Positions 5,779 through 37,655 of a stretch of 37,655 bases of DNA are shown here, one piece after another (positions within the stretch are counted from its first letter, which is position 1; the number at the start of each line of letters is the position of its first letter). The stretch is from a virus (Duplodnaviria > Heunggongvirae > Uroviricota > Caudoviricetes), in the IMG/VR virus record IMGVR_UViG_2939167301_000003; one strand, given 5' to 3'. The notes beneath the pieces are model-generated. The model saw nothing but the letters and a program-made list of their open reading frames with translations. It did no database searches and had not been told where the DNA came from. The translations under genes and the position numbers were made by a program.

Positions 5779-5985
5779 TAAACATAATGTTTTAGATTGG
5801 TTGCATAATGGTAAGGTTGCTGTTTATCTGTATATGTTAATATGATTACGCTACGTACAAACAATCGACATTTCTTTTTTTCTATATATTAATATTGATG
5901 ATTTTACTGGTGGTACAATAAGTCTATGTTGAAATTCGAGAATTGTATTATTAACAATAAAAACTGGTTCTTTTTATTATACAAG

Positions 5986-6012
5986 GACCACCTCCTTAGG
6001 AGGTGGTCTTTT
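5986..6012 (+). terminator. Rho-independent terminator after A
   Basis: Perfect 10-bp stem GACCACCTCC/GGAGGTGGTC with TTA loop, followed by TTTT. Confidence 0.7.
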
Positions 6013-6017
6013 ACTGT

Positions 6018-8501
6018 TTAACGAGGGTTTCGCGTATAGGTTTCAACTATGTCTGATGCACGTAATTTACATGTGATCAATTGTTCTCTTATAAATATCT
6101 CATCGTGTCGTTTATCACTTGTACAAATGGCCGTGATAAAACTGAGGATAGATGCTTTAAAACGTTCAAGATCATTTATGGTCATTATTCGAGACCCTTC
6201 GTTTAGTGTTGCGGCATATTCAGGCATATTAGAGTGATGTATCATTATAGGTGTGGCGGTAGCAGTTTGATCATACATGTTTCTGAACCATGCACCCGAC
6301 CCATTTAACTGATTGCAGTCATGCTTACTTATTCTTTCTGCGGTTGCTCCATTTTTGCATTCAATTACTAGATAATTGTTTTCTCCCATTGCCCATAAAT
6401 TGTCAGGTCCTTTACCTGTATCATTTTCTGGCCGTTGGCTACGAAAACCGACCAAATATGCAACTTTTTCGATAGCATCTTCGAAGGGATTCGATGTGCC
6501 CTCGGAGAAAATAAGGTTTTCTATTATTGAATTAGTATGCACAACGACTTGATTGGCCGATTCAAAATTACTTCTGAGATAGGAGCTACATTCCCTGGCC
6601 TGTTCAAGTGCCGCACCATTAAGTCTATTATATGTTACGCCGATTAGTGGTTTTAATACCCGATAGTTATCGTTTGATGCAGACTGAAGCAATATCTGAG
6701 CTTCAGATTTGTCATATAAGTTTACATATTCCGCAGCATGTTCTTTTAGATAACCCTTATAAACTTTGTCAGCTGTACTACTATCATTTTTTAGAGTTAA
6801 AGCGGCTTGTTGAAACATATTTCGTGATGCTAAGTCATATGCCAATCTTTTATTTATAGTATGCTGGTCAATCTGCTTATTTTCCAATGTTAAGCCAGTC
6901 AATATACCTTTGCTTTTTGAGACCCAGTCAGAATTGCGTAACAGACAATAATCAAGAGCACCTTTGATTGAATCAATAGTTGTATCCGGCAGTATCGATA
7001 CCAATTGCTGTGAAAGTTGAATTTGTGCTTTCGTTGCTGGAGAAAACCTTTCTAAGGAGGAGCCAAGGAAAACAGCGCCATTTAATGCTTTGCCAAGTAA
7101 GATCACTCCGCAGAAGTCGTCGCTTGATCTCACTCCTCGCCCCATTCCTTGTTCAATTTTCTGGATAATTTCATCTTTGGTTTTTTCGCTTCCAAGCAAT
7201 AAGCTTTGTGAGACTTTATCTATTAGTCTACGAACGTCAGGAAGTCCATCTATTACTAATAGACGACATGCGGTATTTGGTAAATCAATACCATCATATC
7301 TATTAACTAGGACTACTAAGCCAACATGTTGTGTCCTTAATTCTTGTACACCTTGATAAATTGTATTTTTATCTAATATTCTGTCTGCAACATCTTGCCA
7401 AAATCTAGTTCTGTAATCGGATGGTACAATTACAACAACATTATGTTTGGAGGATATCTCCTTGCACATAGCTTTGATATCTACATCAGAAAGACTAGGG
7501 TTTATAACCTGAGGCATTAGTATCATTCTATCACCAATATCACCAATTGTTTTTGGTGTTATCGGATTAGAGAGTGATTCATCCGTTATTCCGAAGTGGC
7601 TCGCTAGAATGGATTCATCGACAAGAGTAGCTGTCATGAATATTTTTCTTCTTGCGTTTGATAGGCTTGGGATCATTTGGATTGGTATGCAATGAGGTGA
7701 TATCTCTATTTTGGAAGCACTTACAACGCATTTCGATAATATTAGATTGTCTTTTATTAATGGCCATTTGAAACTCAAGTCATCATGGTCTTTATTTTCT
7801 AACAAGATTGTCATTATATCATTTATGCTTTCTTGCCATTTCCAAAATGGAACTCTCACATAAGCATTTCTATCGCCGGATTTTATCTCTAGTGTTTTTG
7901 CACCAGCTTGTGTCATTAGTGAATTTTCAAAAATTCTGAATAATTTATCATAGGCAGGGTTGTTTTTTTGAATGCTAATGGAGAATTGTTCTTCAATTGA
8001 AGAAAGGCAAGCGTGAGCATCGTCAATTATTATAGAACCTATTGGTATTCTTTGTCCATCATCTCCAACGCCAAATGCAGAACGTCCATTAACCACTTTG
8101 AATATATTTGTAACTAAAATTTCTTTACCTGCAATAAATTTGGGGGACCTCTCATCTTGAGTTACAGGTATACCAAGTTGATTAGCCTCCAAAACCACTT
8201 GCTCAACTAGATAGTTGTCAGGAACAACATATACAGCGGGACCTTCTCCTTCATTTATACAGCTTTTAAGAATGATTAACCCAACTGAAGTTTTACCGCT
8301 TCCGGTATTCATTTTTATTACATTGGTTGGGCTTCTCCTTGCTTCATACCATTTTTCCCAGACCTCTGATTGCACATCTCGAGGGTATTGAAATTTGGTG
8401 TCTTTGCTCGGTAGAGCTGTAAATATATCTCGCGGTGGAATCGCTGTGTCGCTATTTACACTGGGCGAAAGCTTGGTTAAATCAAGGAAAAAACCAGACA
8501 T
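6018..8501 (-). CDS. SF2 (DEAH-like) helicase fused to a C-terminal PD-(D/E)xK-type nuclease; candidate single-gene anti-phage defence protein in the P2 tin/old cargo position
   Basis: 827-aa ORF with a good SD (AAGAGGA) 6 bp upstream. Helicase motifs seen: Walker A NTGSGKTS, motif II IIIDDAHA, motif III MTATL, motif VI QGMGRGVR. C-terminus has E...GPD...VIECK. Strongly AT-rich compared with flanking phage genes. Confidence 0.7.
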   Translation of the reverse strand: MSGFFLDLTKLSPSVNSDTAIPPRDIFTALPSKDTKFQYPRDVQSEVWEKWYEARRSPTNVIKMNTGSGKTSVGLIILKSCINEGEGPAVYVVPDNYLVEQVVLEANQLGIPVTQDERSPKFIAGKEILVTNIFKVVNGRSAFGVGDDGQRIPIGSIIIDDAHACLSSIEEQFSISIQKNNPAYDKLFRIFENSLMTQAGAKTLEIKSGDRNAYVRVPFWKWQESINDIMTILLENKDHDDLSFKWPLIKDNLILSKCVVSASKIEISPHCIPIQMIPSLSNARRKIFMTATLVDESILASHFGITDESLSNPITPKTIGDIGDRMILMPQVINPSLSDVDIKAMCKEISSKHNVVVIVPSDYRTRFWQDVADRILDKNTIYQGVQELRTQHVGLVVLVNRYDGIDLPNTACRLLVIDGLPDVRRLIDKVSQSLLLGSEKTKDEIIQKIEQGMGRGVRSSDDFCGVILLGKALNGAVFLGSSLERFSPATKAQIQLSQQLVSILPDTTIDSIKGALDYCLLRNSDWVSKSKGILTGLTLENKQIDQHTINKRLAYDLASRNMFQQAALTLKNDSSTADKVYKGYLKEHAAEYVNLYDKSEAQILLQSASNDNYRVLKPLIGVTYNRLNGAALEQARECSSYLRSNFESANQVVVHTNSIIENLIFSEGTSNPFEDAIEKVAYLVGFRSQRPENDTGKGPDNLWAMGENNYLVIECKNGATAERISKHDCNQLNGSGAWFRNMYDQTATATPIMIHHSNMPEYAATLNEGSRIMTINDLERFKASILSFITAICTSDKRHDEIFIREQLITCKLRASDIVETYTRNPR

Positions 8502-8715
8502 TTTTTATCCTCTTACAGGTACTGCGTATTTTCATGAAAGGAGATCACTCAATAACTTCCATCGAGATCGGGTAATAACATTTGAACAGATCGCTGAATA
8601 ACATCGATGGAGATCACTTTTGACTCATTTTGTTATTCAGTGATCTCCATCAATGTTATTGGAACTTCACAGGTGTGTTGATCTGTATCTTTTGCCATTC
8701 CGGTAAAGGATACCT

Positions 8716-10257
8716 ATGCCAACAGTTCCAATTTCTATGAGAAAACTTAAAGAAATTCTTAGGCTTAAATACGGTGTTGGACTCAGCCATCGACAAATTG
8801 GTCGTAGTCTTGCAATCTCCCCTTCCGTTGTATCCAGATATGCTAATCGGGCGGCTCAACTTGGCATAAAGCAGTGGCCCTTACCTACAGGATGGGATGA
8901 TACAAAACTAAAACATGCGTTCCTTCAGACCCAGGTTAAGATGAAGAAGCACTCTCTGCCTGACTGGGCTACAGTACACCGGGAACTGCGTAATAAATGC
9001 GTGACGCTGCAGCTACTCTGGGAAGAATACTGTGAGCGTAATCCAGGCGGTTTTTACAGCTATAACCATTACTGCCGGATGTACCGTGAATGGCTCAAAA
9101 CCACTTCACCATCAATGCGTCAGGTACATAAAGCTGGCGAAAAACTTTTCGTTGATTACTGTGGACCTACCGTTGGCGTTACCGACCCTGAGACCGGAGA
9201 AATAAGAACTGCTCAGGTCATCGTAGCTGTTCTCGGGGCATCAAGTTACACATGGGCAGAGGCCACCTGGTCTCAGCAGCTTGAAGACTGGGTGATGAGT
9301 CATGTTCGCTGCTTCCAGTGGTTGGGTGGCGTTCCTGAACTTGTTGTTCCGGACAATCTGAAAAGCGCCACATCCAGGGCATGTAAGTATGATCCTGACG
9401 TTAACCCTACCTACCAGCAGATGCTTGAGCATTATAATGTCGCAGTTTTGCCTGCGCGGCCACGTAAACCGAAAGATAAAGCCAAAGCTGAAGTTGGCGT
9501 TCAGGTTGTTGAACGCTGGATCATGGCCCGAATCAGGCATGAGATCTTCTACAGCCTTGCATCGCTTAATCAGCGCATTCGGGAGTTGCTGGAAAGACTG
9601 AATAACAAAATAATGCAGAAGTTGGGTTATTCACGTGCAGAACTCTTCATCCAGCTTGATAAACCCGCACTGAAGCCTCTTCCTGAAGCCAGTTACAGTT
9701 ACACCCTGGTGAAGAAAGTCAGAGTCCATGCCGATTACCACGTGGAAATCGACAAACATTACTACTCGGTTCCATGTTCGCTGTTAGGCCAGCAACTGGA
9801 AGCATGGATCTCCGGAGAACTGGTAAGACTCTTCAATCAGGGGCAGGAGGTTGCTGTGCACCCGCGCAAGCGTACTTATGGCTACAGTACCCGCAACGAG
9901 CACATGCCTGAAGCTCATCGACAGCATGCCACCTGGACGCCAGAGCGTCTTCTGGAATGGGCGGGGCACATAGGCAGTGAAACTCATAGTTATGTGCTTC
10001 ATATACTGAACTCTCGTCCACATCCGGAACAAAGCTATCGCTTCTGCCTTGGACTCCTGAACCTTCATAAAAAATACAGTAAAGCCAGACTTAATGCAGC
10101 ATGTGCAAGAGCTCTGAAAACAAAGGTATGGCGTCTGTCAGGTATTAAATCGATCCTGGAAAAAGGTCTGGATAAACAACCTGTTCAGGATCCAAAACCA
10201 GATCTGTTATCCACGATGGAACACGAAAACGTACGCGGCAGTGAGTATTACCACTGA
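8716..10257 (+). CDS. istA: IS21-family transposase IstA
   Basis: 513 aa with N-terminal HTH (LSHRQIGRSLAISPSVVSRY) and a DDE integrase-like core; followed by istB. Confidence 0.85.
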   Translation: MPTVPISMRKLKEILRLKYGVGLSHRQIGRSLAISPSVVSRYANRAAQLGIKQWPLPTGWDDTKLKHAFLQTQVKMKKHSLPDWATVHRELRNKCVTLQLLWEEYCERNPGGFYSYNHYCRMYREWLKTTSPSMRQVHKAGEKLFVDYCGPTVGVTDPETGEIRTAQVIVAVLGASSYTWAEATWSQQLEDWVMSHVRCFQWLGGVPELVVPDNLKSATSRACKYDPDVNPTYQQMLEHYNVAVLPARPRKPKDKAKAEVGVQVVERWIMARIRHEIFYSLASLNQRIRELLERLNNKIMQKLGYSRAELFIQLDKPALKPLPEASYSYTLVKKVRVHADYHVEIDKHYYSVPCSLLGQQLEAWISGELVRLFNQGQEVAVHPRKRTYGYSTRNEHMPEAHRQHATWTPERLLEWAGHIGSETHSYVLHILNSRPHPEQSYRFCLGLLNLHKKYSKARLNAACARALKTKVWRLSGIKSILEKGLDKQPVQDPKPDLLSTMEHENVRGSEYYH

Positions 10258-10268
10258 TACGGGATCCA

Positions 10269-11018
10269 ATGATGAATCATCTTTACGAACAACTGACCGC
10301 ACTTAAACTCACCGGCTTCCGTGATGCGCTTAAAAAGCAACTTGCTCAGCCGGGCACATACCAGGAGCTGGGCTTCGAAGAACGCCTGTCATTACTGACA
10401 GCAGAAGAACTAACCTGCCGTGAAAACAGGAAGGCAGAGCGTCTGATCAAACATGCACGGTTCAGACTTAATGCTGAGTTATCAAAGCTGGATTATCGTA
10501 ACAATAGAGGGCTGGACAGGGCCCTCATCCGTTCACTCAGTCAGGGAAACTGGTTAACCCTGAAACAAAATATTTTACTGACCGGGGCCACCGGCAGCGG
10601 TAAAACGTTCCTGGCATGTGCACTTGGTCATAATGCCTGCCGACAGGGATACAAGGTCTACTATTATCGCCTTAAAGCGCTGATGGAACAGTGCTATCAG
10701 GGGCATGCTGATGGAAGATACAGCAAACTTTTGACCAGGCTGAATAATAGCGATCTGCTGCTTCTGGATGACTGGGGGCTGGAACCTCTCTCATCAGAAC
10801 AGCGTAGCGACCTGCTGGAAATAGTGGATCTGATGTACCAACGAGGCTCAATCATCGTAGTGAGCCAGTTGCCGGTGGAAAACTGGTACAAAATGATCGG
10901 AGACTCCACACATGCGGATGCCATCCTAGATCGACTGGTTCATGGCAGTATCAAGATCGAACTTAAAGGAGAATCAATGCGGAAAATACAATCTCCGTTG
11001 ACCGAAGGAGATCAGTGA
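10269..11018 (+). CDS. istB: IS21-family ATP-binding helper IstB
   Basis: 249 aa with Walker A GATGSGKTF and Walker B LLLLDDWG, typical of IstB. Confidence 0.88.
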   Translation: MMNHLYEQLTALKLTGFRDALKKQLAQPGTYQELGFEERLSLLTAEELTCRENRKAERLIKHARFRLNAELSKLDYRNNRGLDRALIRSLSQGNWLTLKQNILLTGATGSGKTFLACALGHNACRQGYKVYYYRLKALMEQCYQGHADGRYSKLLTRLNNSDLLLLDDWGLEPLSSEQRSDLLEIVDLMYQRGSIIVVSQLPVENWYKMIGDSTHADAILDRLVHGSIKIELKGESMRKIQSPLTEGDQ

Positions 11019-11270
11019 AGGTAATTTAAAAACGGTTCTGTGAAAGTGACACGAACCGATCTCCATCGATGTTACTCACCGATCTCCTTCACGGTAATAC
11101 GCAGGTACATTAGTTTAATTGTTAACGCAGAATTATCATTACCATAACTTGCATTAAGTTGCATTACATTGCATTCATAAACGTTAGCTAGGGGCGAAGT
11201 CTGAGGTTTGATGGGCTATGGTGTCCCCTTTAATACGAGGTTGCATCAAAACCGCCCCATGAAGCGGGCG

Positions 11271-35544: not shown

Positions 35545-35763
35545 ATGTTTCATTGTCCTTTATGCCAGCATGCCGCACATGCGCGTACAAGTCGCTATAT
35601 TACTGACACGACAAAAGAGCGTTATCACCAGTGTCAGAACGTGAATTGCAGCGCCACGTTCATCACTTATGAGTCGGTACAGCGATACATCGTGAAACCG
35701 GGAGAAGTCCACGCCGTAAGGCCGCACCCGTTGCCGTCAGGGCAGCAAATTATGTGGATGTAA
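35545..35763 (+). CDS. ogr: Ogr, zinc-finger activator of late transcription
   Basis: 72 aa from MFHCPLCQHAAHARTSRYITDT with a CxxC...CxxxxC zinc-binding motif, matching P2 Ogr as recalled. Confidence 0.92.
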   Translation: MFHCPLCQHAAHARTSRYITDTTKERYHQCQNVNCSATFITYESVQRYIVKPGEVHAVRPHPLPSGQQIMWM

Positions 35764-35774
35764 TTACAAACAGA

Positions 35775-35804
35775 AAGCCCCTCAGTCGAGGGGCTTTCTG
35801 TTTT
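35775..35804 (+). terminator. Rho-independent terminator after ogr
   Basis: Hairpin AAAGCCCCTC-agtc-GAGGGGCTTT followed by a T-rich run. Confidence 0.75.
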
Positions 35805-35903
35805 GGGGAATATTCTTCATTAAAAGTAGTGGATCACGTTTAATAAACTATGTTTATCATATACTTAAAAGTCAATCTTTAAAGTTGGACAGGTTGGTGG
35901 AAA

Positions 35904-36545
35904 ATGGAAAAAGTTATAATTGAGCTTGATAATCGTTGGGAGTTAGCTGATTTCGCGGTCTTAACGAAAGAGTATTTGCAGCTATATGGTTTTTTTTATG
36001 GCCTAAAAGGAGGATCAAGAGGATATTCAACAATGCCTTGGGAGGGTGGGCACAGTGTGGTGAACTTTTTTAGAGGGGCTTACAGTGCGACTCCACCAGA
36101 TTTACGTCCTGTAGTGAAAAAAATTCAGTATGCCTCTCCTGGCTTTATTGAATTGTCTGCTCTTATTGATATCTCTTGGCAGATTGCTGAGTTAGTTACT
36201 GCTGTTGGTGGAAGTATTCTGGCTGCCAACAAAGTTTACGATCAGGTGATGCGTACATATCGACAAAGAGAATGGGCAAAGTTGAAATCAGAGAAGCTGC
36301 GTATACAGAATCAAATTAAAGAGATTGAACTTGTTTCTGACGCAGTTAAATCACTTGAATCTGTGATGGCACTTAGTGAAGAACAACGTAAAAACTTGGT
36401 TCAACTATCGGGGGCAGATGAACTGGTTCAGTTAAAGATACTTTTGGCTGTTTACCGACGGTTATCTCCTCTTGTTGAGTTGCAAAACAGCGGGAAAGCT
36501 AATTTTTCTGCTGGGAAAAATAAAAATTTAAAAGCGTCCGATTAA
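35904..36545 (+). CDS. Hypothetical 213-aa protein, AT-rich orphan between ogr and fieF
   Basis: Intact ORF, visibly more AT-rich than neighbouring phage and host genes. Followed by a strong intrinsic terminator. No recognisable motif; the C-terminal half looks coiled-coil-like. Confidence 0.55.
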   Translation: MEKVIIELDNRWELADFAVLTKEYLQLYGFFYGLKGGSRGYSTMPWEGGHSVVNFFRGAYSATPPDLRPVVKKIQYASPGFIELSALIDISWQIAELVTAVGGSILAANKVYDQVMRTYRQREWAKLKSEKLRIQNQIKEIELVSDAVKSLESVMALSEEQRKNLVQLSGADELVQLKILLAVYRRLSPLVELQNSGKANFSAGKNKNLKASD

Positions 36546-36644
36546 ACGGACGCTGAACGATGTGGACGCTATGTGGACAGCGGTTGACATAAATCCATTT
36601 ATATCATCAGGTTAGGTGCTTTTTTGTGACACCATCCCTGTCTT

Positions 36645-36671
36645 CCCCCACATGCTGTGGGGGTTTTTTTT
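36645..36671 (+). terminator. Rho-independent terminator upstream of fieF
   Basis: Stem CCCCCACA/TGTGGGGG with a 3-nt loop, followed by T8. Confidence 0.8.
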
Positions 36672-36752
36672 ATCCTCAATTTGCCTGCTGCTTAATGCAT
36701 TGCAGATGATTTGCTTCCGTTATACTAGCGTCAGTTGATAGCGGGAGTATTT

Positions 36753-37655
36753 ATGAATCAATCTTATGGACGGCTGGTCAGTCGGGCGGCGATTGCTGCG
36801 ACGGCGATGGCTTCGCTGCTATTGCTGATTAAAATTTTTGCATGGTGGTATACCGGGTCGGTGAGTATTCTCGCCGCGCTGGTGGATTCGCTGGTGGATA
36901 TCGGCGCGTCGTTGACGAATTTATTGGTGGTGCGATATTCCCTGCAACCTGCCGACGATAATCACTCGTTTGGTCACGGTAAAGCTGAGTCCCTCGCGGC
37001 GCTGGCGCAAAGTATGTTTATCTCCGGTTCGGCACTATTCCTGTTTTTGACGGGTATTCAACATCTGATATCTCCAACACCGATGACAGATCCAGGCGTC
37101 GGGGTTATCGTGACAATTGTGGCGCTAATTTGTACGATTATCCTTGTCTCGTTTCAGCGTTGGGTGGTGCGGCGGACGCAAAGCCAGGCTGTGCGGGCTG
37201 ATATGCTACATTACCAGTCTGATGTTATGATGAACGGCGCAATTCTGCTGGCGCTGGGGTTGTCCTGGTACGGCTGGCATCGCGCCGATGCTCTGTTTGC
37301 ATTGGGAATCGGCATCTATATTTTATATAGCGCGTTACGCATGGGATATGAGGCGGTACAGTCATTACTGGATCGCGCATTGCCTGATGAGGAACGGCAA
37401 GAAATTATTGATATCGTGACTTCCTGGCCGGGTGTTAGCGGCGCTCACGATCTTCGCACGCGGCAGTCAGGGCCGACCCGCTTTATTCAGATTCATTTGG
37501 AAATGGAAGACTCTCTGCCTTTGGTTCAGGCACATATGGTGGCGGATCAGGTAGAGCAGGCTATTTTACGGCGTTTTCCGGGATCGGATGTAATTATCCA
37601 TCAGGACCCCTGTTCCGTCGTACCCAGGGAGGGTAAACGGTCTATGCTTTCATAA
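36753..37655 (+). CDS. fieF: Cation-efflux pump FieF (YiiP), cation diffusion facilitator family; host gene
   Basis: 300 aa from [36 protein letters not shown], recognised as enterobacterial FieF. Multi-pass membrane N-terminal domain and cytoplasmic C-terminal domain. Complete, with stop at 37653-37655. Confidence 0.9.

What the first reader, a model, noticed from the sequence alone, without database searches (positions are those of the whole stretch)
35904..36545. AT-rich orphan 213-aa ORF at the ogr-distal prophage/host junction
This ORF has no recognisable motif and is clearly more AT-rich than the phage backbone. It lies between the ogr terminator and the terminator upstream of fieF, and ends with its own strong terminator region. 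I recall cargo genes commonly sitting next to att sites in P2-like prophages, so this could be a lysogenic-conversion or exclusion gene, or a host islet. attR could not be located, so phage versus host ownership is unresolved.
Basis: inference. Interest (0 to 1): 0.5.

Follow-up and report, generated by a model that had tools for sequence, protein, structure and literature searches.

The report
Antitoxin-less defence-toxin homologue carried by prophage
The AT-rich 213-aa gene belongs to the P2-like prophage, not the host, and is a stand-alone, partner-less relative of the toxin of PD-T4-10, a validated E. coli anti-phage system, so it is most likely a phage-carried exclusion gene whose way of avoiding self-poisoning is unknown.

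Summary
The ORF (35904-36545, +) is real, under strong purifying selection, and AT-rich (39.9% GC against 55.7% for the phage late genes). I located attR: the 47-nt core is 36628-36674, which is the cpxP/CpxQ terminator. The phage P arm is 36558-36627. The ORF therefore lies inside the prophage, within a 760-bp insertion (35798-36557) that phage Wphi and all five sampled sibling prophages without it lack. About 24% of E. coli prophages at this site carry the ORF (158 of 668 genomes). Prophage-free K-12 has no such gene.

"No recognisable motif" holds for Pfam, PHROGs, NCBIfam and PDB folds. However, PADLOC matches PD-T4-10_B (E=1.3e-34), the toxin of a validated toxin-antitoxin-like abortive-infection system. 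The match covers only the C-terminal ~210-aa module. The N-terminal DUF6575 domain and the antitoxin gene A are both absent, here and at about 58 other short-form loci. Those loci are solitary genes in prophage ends, islets and an integron-like array.

Best reading: a single-gene phage-exclusion or abortive-infection cargo. This is inferred from homology and has not been tested. It is a new variant of a known kind and of moderate interest.

The parts
35545..35763 (+). ogr (late-gene activator). It is the last conserved phage gene before the cargo.
   Evidence: RefSeq annotates it as OgrK in the identical locus L001. It is 96% identical to Wphi ogr.
35774..35804 (+). ogr intrinsic terminator: 10-bp stem 35774-35797 followed by a T-rich tail. 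Homology to Wphi ends at 35797.
   Evidence: Read directly from the sequence.
35798..36557 (+). 760-bp AT-rich insertion (cargo cassette) relative to Wphi and to cargo-free sibling prophages.
   Evidence: In Wphi only 9 nt separate the two homology blocks that flank this stretch. Siblings L018, L019, L020, L096 and L097 go from ogr straight to the P arm. GC is 38.8%.
35860..35865 (+). Candidate -10 hexamer TATACT, 38 nt upstream of the ATG. The -35 is weak. This assignment is inferred only.
   Evidence: Read from the sequence. It aligns with GATAAT in the 72%-identical homologue's upstream region. The consensus scan found no 9/12 plus-strand promoter here.
35904..36545 (+). 213-aa ORF: a stand-alone PD-T4-10B-like effector module (RefSeq WP_000416606.1, hypothetical protein).
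   Evidence: PADLOC PD-T4-10_B matches at E=1.3e-34 over profile positions 139-346 of 353. The family has 794 clusters. The AF2 model has pLDDT 85.9.
36533..36554 (-). 8-bp GC-rich hairpin over the stop codon. It is terminator-like only on the minus strand, where it could block transcription entering from the host side.
36558..36627 (+). Phage P arm of attP/attR, with direct TGTGGAC repeats at 36561-36567 and 36572-36578. These are presumed Int arm sites.
   Evidence: 97-98% identical to attP regions of Wphi, L-413C and other P2-like phages. Present in 668 E. coli genomes. The same TGTGGACnCTATGTGGACA motif occurs in the P' arm at attL.
36628..36674 (+). attR core (47 nt). It equals the 3' 44 nt of the host sRNA gene cpxQ (the cpxP terminator) plus ATC. 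It also serves as the plus-strand terminator downstream of the ORF.
   Evidence: Four-way attB/attL/attR/attP alignment. BLAST of attL against attR gives 46/47 identities. The terminator scan finds 36645-36663 plus T8. cpxQ is annotated in K-12.
36753..37655 (+). fieF, the first host gene beyond attR.
   Evidence: RefSeq annotation of L001 and of K-12.

Best explanation
The ORF is a phage-owned accessory gene (moron). It sits in a 760-bp AT-rich cassette inserted between the ogr terminator and the P arm of attP in a Wphi-type P2-like prophage integrated into the cpxP/cpxQ terminator. This much is shown.

Its product is a minimal, stand-alone version of the conserved ~210-aa C-terminal module of PD-T4-10B. 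PD-T4-10B is the toxic component of PD-T4-10, a toxin-antitoxin-like abortive-infection system of E. coli that protects against T-even phages. That module behaves as a portable effector. It occurs alone (as here), behind a DUF6575 domain with an upstream antitoxin gene A (canonical PD-T4-10), or behind TRADD-N adaptor domains.

Inferred function: in the lysogen the protein acts as a single-gene superinfection-exclusion or abortive-infection effector that benefits the prophage. It would be kept harmless by low expression or by intrinsic auto-inhibition, not by a dedicated antitoxin, and would be activated by a component of an infecting phage.

The model shows a soluble protein with no transmembrane segment. 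It has an N-terminal ferredoxin-like alpha/beta domain carrying the invariant residues (W12, Y24, Y28, G48-G49-x-S51, Y76-A-S-P-G80). This is followed by a 67-residue helix and a helical hairpin with invariant K178 and R185. The biochemical target is unknown.
For: Phage ownership:
- The attR core is 36628-36674 and the P arm is 36558-36627.
- The ORF is absent from K-12 attB and from sibling prophages at the same site.
- It is present in 159 of 5426 genomes, 158 of them at this junction, against 668 genomes with this P arm.

Foreign composition is shown. Purifying selection is shown.

Homology:
- PADLOC PD-T4-10_B matches at E=1.3e-34, 7e-23 and 3e-19, always over the C-terminal module.
- An HMM search finds 794 clusters with two architectures, short and long.
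- 21 of 39 sequences in the long-form alignment hit DUF6575.
- Two homologues carry TRADD-like_N above the Pfam cut-off. TRADD-N links effectors to invader sensing (PMC8195603).
- Canonical A+B pairs were verified in Cupriavidus, Stenotrophomonas and a metagenome.

Function of the relative: PD-T4-10B is toxic, A neutralises it, deletion of B abolishes T4 resistance, and the phenotype is abortive infection (PMC9519451).

Stand-alone status:
- No A homologue is in the window or in short-form loci.
- No DUF6575-like ORF is in the window.
- No conserved neighbour exists across 58 short-form loci.

Mobile or defence context of short forms:
- Ends of P2/HP1-like prophages.
- Next to PDC-S21 (DUF4917) in a Pseudomonas prophage.
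- A Vibrio integron-like cassette array.
Against: - There is no experimental datum for this protein or for any short form.
- The only validated relative needs an antitoxin and has an extra N-terminal domain. The short module might therefore not be toxic, or might not act in defence at all.
- No convincing sigma-70 promoter is predicted upstream, so expression in the lysogen is not established.
- The gene lies directly downstream of ogr and could be expressed in the lytic cycle instead.
- The same junction holds an unrelated secreted-protein gene in another strain, so the site is not defence-specific.
- Fold searches give no mechanistic clue.
Confidence: 0.55

Rival explanations
1. A cryptic toxin-antitoxin or addiction module. 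The protein is a constitutive toxin held in check by an unrecognised antitoxin, such as a small RNA or peptide in the cassette, or a factor encoded elsewhere in the phage. Its main role would be to stabilise the prophage or its remnants.
For: - It is homologous to a bona fide TA toxin.
- Two genomes show the cassette only 3-7 kb from the hotspot-1 gene, which suggests deleted prophage remnants that kept it.
- A minus-strand terminator-like hairpin overlaps the 3' end.
Against: - No ORF of 50 aa or more is conserved next to short forms across 58 loci.
- No Rfam family reaches threshold.
- Only 106 nt lie upstream and 12 nt downstream within the cassette.
- The cassette occurs with different hotspot-1 cargo: 159 genomes carry it against 69 with that cargo. 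A trans partner at that hotspot is therefore unlikely.
- It also occurs as a single integron-like cassette.
Confidence: 0.12
2. A lytic-cycle accessory of the P2-like phage itself. It would be transcribed by read-through from the late FETUD-ogr unit and act as a host shut-off or lysis-timing factor, not as lysogen immunity.
For: - It has the same orientation as ogr and lies immediately downstream of it.
- The predicted promoter is weak.
- The insert boundary sits exactly at the end of the ogr terminator stem.
Against: - The ogr hairpin with its T-rich tail lies between the two genes.
- The gene is dispensable for about 76% of sibling prophages.
- Homologues sit in non-phage islets and integron-like arrays, where a phage lytic function makes no sense.
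- The validated relative acts in defence.
Confidence: 0.12
3. A functionless or decaying orphan: a remnant of a PD-T4-10-like system that lost its N-terminal domain and antitoxin.
For: Both A and DUF6575 are lacking. One copy is interrupted (H97), and one has an IS element inserted upstream.
Against: - The short form is the majority architecture: about 74% of the best 150 clusters.
- Start and length are conserved.
- dN/dS is about 0.1.
- 158 of 159 E. coli copies are full length at 99% identity or more.
Confidence: 0.06
4. A host islet or housekeeping gene of the cpxP-fieF region.
For: None beyond its position next to fieF.
Against: - It lies on the phage side of attR.
- It is absent from K-12 and from about 97% of complete E. 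coli genomes.
- Its composition is foreign.
Confidence: 0.01
5. An anti-defence decoy. The phage-encoded toxin-like module would interfere with a host PD-T4-10-like system or another host system to help the phage.
For: Phages do carry truncated mimics of defence components (general knowledge). The protein lacks the regulatory parts of PD-T4-10B.
Against: All residues invariant across the family are retained. Short forms are common in chromosomes without phage context. There is no evidence for co-occurrence with long forms.
Confidence: 0.05

Closest known systems
PD-T4-10 (Vassallo et al. 2022, Nat Microbiol; PADLOC models PDLC04023-04026)
   Same: The ORF is homologous over its full length to the C-terminal ~210 aa of the toxic component PD-T4-10B (E=1.3e-34). 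It shares all family-invariant residues. It occurs in E. coli and on mobile elements.
   Different: There is no upstream overlapping antitoxin gene A. The ~135-aa N-terminal DUF6575 domain of B is missing. It is a single solitary gene, so rule-based tools that require A+B would not call a system. Its phenotype is untested.
P2 accessory exclusion genes old, tin and fun(Z), and the two described P2 defence hotspots (A-Q next to cos; the Z/fun locus)
   Same: It is a single AT-rich non-essential gene carried by a P2-like phage. It shows presence/absence polymorphism among otherwise collinear phages. This window also has a filled hotspot 1: PDC-S28 helicase at 6018-8501 and a DrmD-like gene at 10269-11018.
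   Different: The position is different: the ogr-attP junction at the very end of the prophage. Neither hotspot paper mentions it. The protein family is also different.
TRADD-N / EAD-linked effector modules of bacterial conflict systems (Kaur, Iyer, Burroughs, Aravind 2021, eLife)
   Same: The same module is fused behind TRADD-like_N domains in homologues P0212 and P0232 (24.8 and 24.1 bits against a cut-off of 23.7). This is the position normally occupied by effectors.
   Different: The window protein has no adaptor domain. No STAND/NTPase partner is nearby.

Membership tests
PD-T4-10 system | A protein homologous to PD-T4-10B | tested here: met
   PADLOC PDLC04024/25/26 match at E=1.3e-34, 7.1e-23 and 3.2e-19. 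The match is only to profile positions 139-346 of 353, i.e. the C-terminal module.
PD-T4-10 system | N-terminal DUF6575 domain on the B protein | tested here: not met
   The ORF starts at the module. An in-frame stop lies 24 nt upstream. An HMM of the long-form N-terminal region finds nothing in the six-frame window (best E=1.3), although it recovers all long forms.
PD-T4-10 system | Upstream, overlapping or abutting antitoxin gene PD-T4-10A | tested here: not met
   phmmer --max with two A proteins (which recognise each other at E=8.5e-21) gives a best window hit of E=0.48. jackhmmer finds A only next to long forms. Only 140 nt separate the ogr stop from the ATG.
PD-T4-10 system | B is toxic, A neutralises it, and the phenotype is abortive-infection protection against T-even phages | not testable with these tools
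   Requires expression and plaque assays. This is known only for the ECOR65 system (PMC9519451).
Prophage moron / accessory cargo | Located inside the prophage boundaries | tested here: met
   The attR core is at 36628-36674 and the P arm at 36558-36627. The ORF ends at 36545.
Prophage moron / accessory cargo | Presence/absence polymorphism among otherwise collinear phages, and atypical composition | tested here: met
   158 of 668 prophages at this site carry it. Wphi and 5 sampled siblings lack it. GC is 39.9% against 55.7%.
Prophage moron / accessory cargo | Own promoter and terminator, giving expression independent of the phage programme | tested here: inconclusive
   Only a -10-like TATACT with a weak -35 is present, and no 9/12 consensus hit. 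The plus-strand terminator is supplied by the att core, not by the cassette.
Described P2 defence hotspots (#1 A-Q / old-tin; #2 Z/fun) | Position between the conserved anchor genes of those hotspots | tested here: not met
   The ORF lies between ogr and attP. Hotspot 1 of this same prophage is at about 5.8-11.2 kb. Neither paper mentions an ogr-att locus.
Type II toxin-antitoxin module | Adjacent co-transcribed protein antitoxin | tested here: not met
   No ORF of 50 aa or more is conserved within 2.5 kb across 58 short-form loci. None is present in the 760-bp cassette.

The most novel reading that the evidence does not exclude
The short form is a self-sufficient, single-protein sensor-effector with a previously unseen fold. 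It would represent the toxic core of the PD-T4-10 family and would work without any antitoxin. The ogr-attP junction would be a third, so far undescribed, cargo and defence site of P2-like phages. In that case DUF6575 and protein A are add-on regulators, and the minimal protein would be the simplest handle for finding the family's cellular target and phage trigger.
Probability: 0.35. Interest if true: 0.6.

Novelty: new variant of a known kind. Interest (0 to 1): 0.45.

Why it matters
PD-T4-10 is an experimentally validated anti-phage system whose two proteins have no known mechanism. This locus shows that the conserved part of its toxin circulates widely as a solitary gene (hundreds of clusters) without the antitoxin or the DUF6575 domain. 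It occurs in about 3% of complete E. coli genomes, at a prophage site that the two hotspot papers checked do not describe.

If the short form is active, several things follow:
- It separates the effector from the regulatory parts of the family.
- It offers a 213-aa minimal system for finding the target and the trigger.
- It shows that detection rules requiring A+B miss most members of the family.
- It adds the ogr-attP junction to the places where P2-like phages keep cargo.

If it is inactive or lytic-cycle specific, it is an ordinary hypothetical moron.

Tried and rejected
- Pfam, PHROGs and NCBIfam on the ORF, and Pfam and PHROGs on 42 family members, gave only noise.
- A PDB sequence-profile search gave nothing below E=0.17.
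- tblastn of the protein against 50,697 phage records found no match.
- Direct-repeat search within the window cannot find attL, because the window starts inside int. attL was taken from an identical genome instead.
- The apparent homology boundary with Salmonella phage STYP1 at 35903 is an artefact of that record ending there.
- Membrane-toxin idea rejected: the highest 19-residue Kyte-Doolittle mean is 1.35, so no transmembrane segment is predicted.
- RNA antitoxin or known sRNA: no Rfam hit reached the gathering score.
- Dependence on the hotspot-1 helicase was rejected on counts: 69 genomes carry it against 159 with the ORF.
- The 1.6-kb gap between ogr and the ORF in L026 is an IS3-family element, not extra cargo.
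- I could not retrieve the ECOR65 PD-T4-10 sequences themselves. Canonical A+B pairs from Cupriavidus and Stenotrophomonas were used as stand-ins.

Full report
**1. The observation**

The ORF is present at 35904-36545 on the plus strand and encodes 213 aa. An in-frame TAA lies at 35880, and no alternative start occurs before the ATG. It is clearly AT-rich. GC is 39.9% and GC3 is 31.8%. By comparison, the 24 kb of late genes are 55.7% GC, gene D has GC3 of 60.6%, and fieF is 52.0% GC.

It is a genuine coding gene. Against homologues of 57-77% identity, synonymous sites are saturated while pN is 0.13-0.27. Where it can be calculated, dN/dS is 0.07-0.11. RefSeq annotates it as hypothetical protein WP_000416606.1.

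**2. Whose gene is it?**

The window begins inside the integrase gene, so attL is outside it. An E. coli genome identical over the region (NZ_CP020514.1) supplied attL. K-12 supplied the empty site. Phage Wphi supplied attP.

The four-way alignment (BLAST) is textbook. A 47-nt core, GACACCATCCCTGTCTTCCCCCACATG[C/A]TGTGGGGGTTTTTTTTATC, is shared by attB, attL, attR and attP. In the window it lies at 36628-36674. It corresponds to the last 44 nt of the sRNA gene cpxQ (the cpxP terminator) plus ATC. The polymorphic loop base is C in attB and attR, and A in attP and attL.

Window 36558-36627 is the phage P arm. It is 97-98% identical to the attP regions of Wphi, L-413C and many P2-like phages, and it carries two TGTGGAC repeats. 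The ORF ends at 36545, so it lies on the phage side of attR.

Relative to Wphi, homology stops at 35797, the last base of the ogr terminator stem, and resumes at 36558. In Wphi only 9 nt separate these points. The cargo cassette is therefore 35798-36557, a length of 760 bp.

**3. Distribution in E. coli**

- 2098 of 5426 complete genomes carry the D-ogr segment.
- 668 genomes carry this P arm.
- 159 genomes carry the ORF, all at 99% identity or more. Of these, 158 have it in exactly this junction with fieF.
- Five sampled sibling prophages at the same site run from ogr straight into the P arm.
- One sibling carries a different cargo there: a 133-aa signal-peptide protein on the other strand.
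- K-12 has cpxP-cpxQ-fieF with nothing in between.

The host-islet or housekeeping reading is refuted. The gene is a presence/absence cargo of the phage. No deposited phage genome encodes it.

**4. What the protein is**

Pfam, PHROGs and NCBIfam give nothing, even when 42 family members are scanned. PADLOC, however, matches all three PD-T4-10_B models at E=1.3e-34, 7e-23 and 3e-19. The match always falls on the C-terminal part of the profile, for example positions 139-346 of 353.

PD-T4-10 was found by functional selection in E. coli ECOR65. It has two overlapping ORFs of unknown function. B is toxic and A neutralises it. A could not be deleted. Deleting B abolishes T4 resistance, and the phenotype is abortive infection against T-even phages (PMC9519451). 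DUF6575 is among the domains that paper lists as new to defence.

A profile of 42 homologues, searched against 1.84 billion representative proteins, finds 794 clusters, of which 587 are at E of 1e-10 or lower. They show two architectures:
- Short forms of about 205-245 aa, like the window ORF. These make up about 74% of the best 150 clusters.
- Long forms of about 330-370 aa, in which the module follows an N-terminal domain.

That N-terminal domain is DUF6575 in 21 of 39 scanned. Two homologues carry TRADD-like_N domains above the Pfam cut-off. TRADD-N is described as the bridge between invader sensing and effector deployment in bacterial conflict systems (PMC8195603). The module is thus used as an effector cassette behind varying N-terminal parts.

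**5. Is it a PD-T4-10 system?**

No. Canonical pairs were verified elsewhere:
- In Cupriavidus, a 189-aa gene (PD-T4-10_A, E=3e-28) overlaps a 371-aa gene (PD-T4-10_B, E=6e-153), next to McrBC-like genes.
- The same arrangement occurs in Stenotrophomonas and in a metagenome.
- Five of five long forms examined have a small ORF abutting their start. Three of these are confirmed as A by PADLOC (E=3e-28 to 1e-39), and a fourth (L088) by jackhmmer. One gives a weak PADLOC hit (L082, E=0.0032). One is not recognisable (L084).

By contrast, no A homologue exists in the six-frame window (best E=0.48) or in any short-form locus. No DUF6575-like ORF exists in the window.

Across 58 short-form loci, no neighbouring ORF of 50 aa or more within 2.5 kb is shared beyond four copies of one Pseudomonas prophage. 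Short forms sit in the following places:
- At the extreme ends of P2/HP1-like prophages.
- Beside an Ogr gene in a small element with no recognisable tail genes nearby.
- 27 nt upstream of a DUF4917 gene that matches PADLOC candidate PDC-S21, in a Pseudomonas prophage.
- As a lone islet in Vibrio vulnificus, and inside a Vibrio integron-like array of small same-strand genes.

The short form is therefore a solitary, mobile, selected gene and not a broken operon.

**6. Structure**

AlphaFold2 with the family alignment gives mean pLDDT 85.9 and pTM 0.54. The elements in order are:
- strand 2-8
- helix 14-36
- helix 49-61
- strands 70-75 and 80-86
- a 67-residue helix at 88-154
- helices 159-169 and 173-195
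- a disordered basic tail

The invariant residues W12, Y24, Y28, G48, G49, S51 and Y76-A-S-P-G80 lie in the alpha/beta part. K178 and R185 lie in the last helix.

**7. Expression signals**

The ogr hairpin (35774-35797, with a T-rich tail) separates the ORF from ogr. The 106-nt upstream stretch is 30% GC. It contains a -10-like TATACT at 35860-35865 that aligns with GATAAT in a 72%-identical homologue. The -35 is weak, and the consensus scan reports no plus-strand promoter there.

The hairpin over the stop codon is terminator-like only on the minus strand. The plus-strand terminator is the att-core hairpin plus T8 at 36645-36672. Whether the gene is expressed in lysogens is therefore open.

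**8. Interpretation**

Shown:
- The gene is phage-owned cargo in a defined 760-bp insertion.
- Its product is a stand-alone homologue of the conserved module of the PD-T4-10B toxin.
- It has no antitoxin A, no DUF6575 domain and no conserved partner.
- It is under purifying selection.

Inferred: it acts as a single-gene exclusion or abortive-infection effector for the lysogen (confidence about 0.55). How it is kept harmless is unknown.

Rivals are a cryptic TA or addiction function (0.12), a lytic-cycle accessory read through from ogr (0.12), a decaying orphan (0.06), an anti-defence decoy (0.05) and a host gene (refuted).

The ORF does not depend on the hotspot-1 cargo of this prophage. That helicase is in only 69 genomes, against 159 with the ORF.

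**9. Novelty and score**

The protein family is detectable with an existing defence HMM, and the general idea of cargo next to att in a P2-like phage is familiar. Three things are not described in the papers I could search:
- the antitoxin-less, DUF6575-less architecture as the majority form of the family;
- its presence in about 3% of complete E. coli genomes;
- the ogr-attP junction as a variable cargo site with at least three states: empty, this ORF, or a secreted-protein gene.

I rate it a new variant of a known kind, with interest 0.45.

Noticed in passing
window 36628-36674; L098 1031-1088: The phage integrates into the 3' end of the sRNA gene cpxQ (the cpxP 3'UTR and terminator). The 47-nt core replaces the last 44 nt of cpxQ. 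As a result, attL carries a phage-derived CpxQ 3' end with C-to-A in the terminator loop, and attR keeps an orphan 44-nt CpxQ 3' fragment. Transcripts of the 213-aa ORF would end in that fragment.
   Followed up: partly
L095 3016-3417 (NZ_CP059907.1, strain 181.1): The same ogr-attP junction holds a different cargo in this strain: a 133-aa protein with an N-terminal signal peptide (WP_021544286.1) on the opposite strand. It has no PADLOC hit. The junction is a variable site with at least three states.
   Followed up: partly
window 5779-11200: The classical P2 hotspot 1 (between replication gene A and portal Q) is filled and AT-rich (41.7% GC). It holds an 827-aa helicase at 6018-8501 (-) matching PADLOC candidate PDC-S28 (E=0), a 513-aa ORF at 8716-10257 with no hit, and a 249-aa DrmD-like ORF at 10269-11018 (E=9e-24). 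The helicase occurs in 69 complete E. coli genomes.
   Followed up: partly
L026 2487-3856 (IMGVR_UViG_2925903241_000001): An IS3-family element (orfA 173 aa, orfB 283 aa) is inserted between ogr and the 213-aa ORF, within or next to its presumed promoter region.
   Followed up: no
NZ_AP027877.1 (H97, H113); NZ_CP027118.1 and NZ_CP041955.1: In one genome the ORF is interrupted at nt 97. In two others the ORF lies only about 3-7 kb from the hotspot-1 helicase, instead of about 28 kb. This suggests deleted prophage remnants that retained both cargo loci.
   Followed up: no
window 36533-36554 (-): An 8-bp GC-rich hairpin overlapping the ORF's stop codon is followed by a T-run only on the minus strand. 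It could terminate transcription entering the prophage from the host side.
   Followed up: no
L006 6661-7668 / L044 (Pseudomonas sp. GM80 prophage): A short-form homologue is followed 27 nt later by a DUF4917 protein matching PADLOC candidate PDC-S21 (E=2.5e-97). Four related Pseudomonas prophages share this small defence cluster.
   Followed up: partly
L039 3581-4615, L040 3509-4615 (IMG/VR contigs); L034 1335-2681 (-): Long-form (DUF6575 plus module) homologues also occur on viral contigs, one of them a P2-like phage with Ogr, D and U genes. No recognisable A gene was found next to them. In L034 a separate DUF6575-like protein lies 1.3 kb from a short form on the opposite strand.
   Followed up: no
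L015 (Salmonella phage STYP1, KX833211.1, record end 28946): The STYP1 record shares the 106-nt upstream region of the cassette and stops exactly one base before the ORF's ATG. The deposited genome is probably truncated within this cargo cassette.
   Followed up: no
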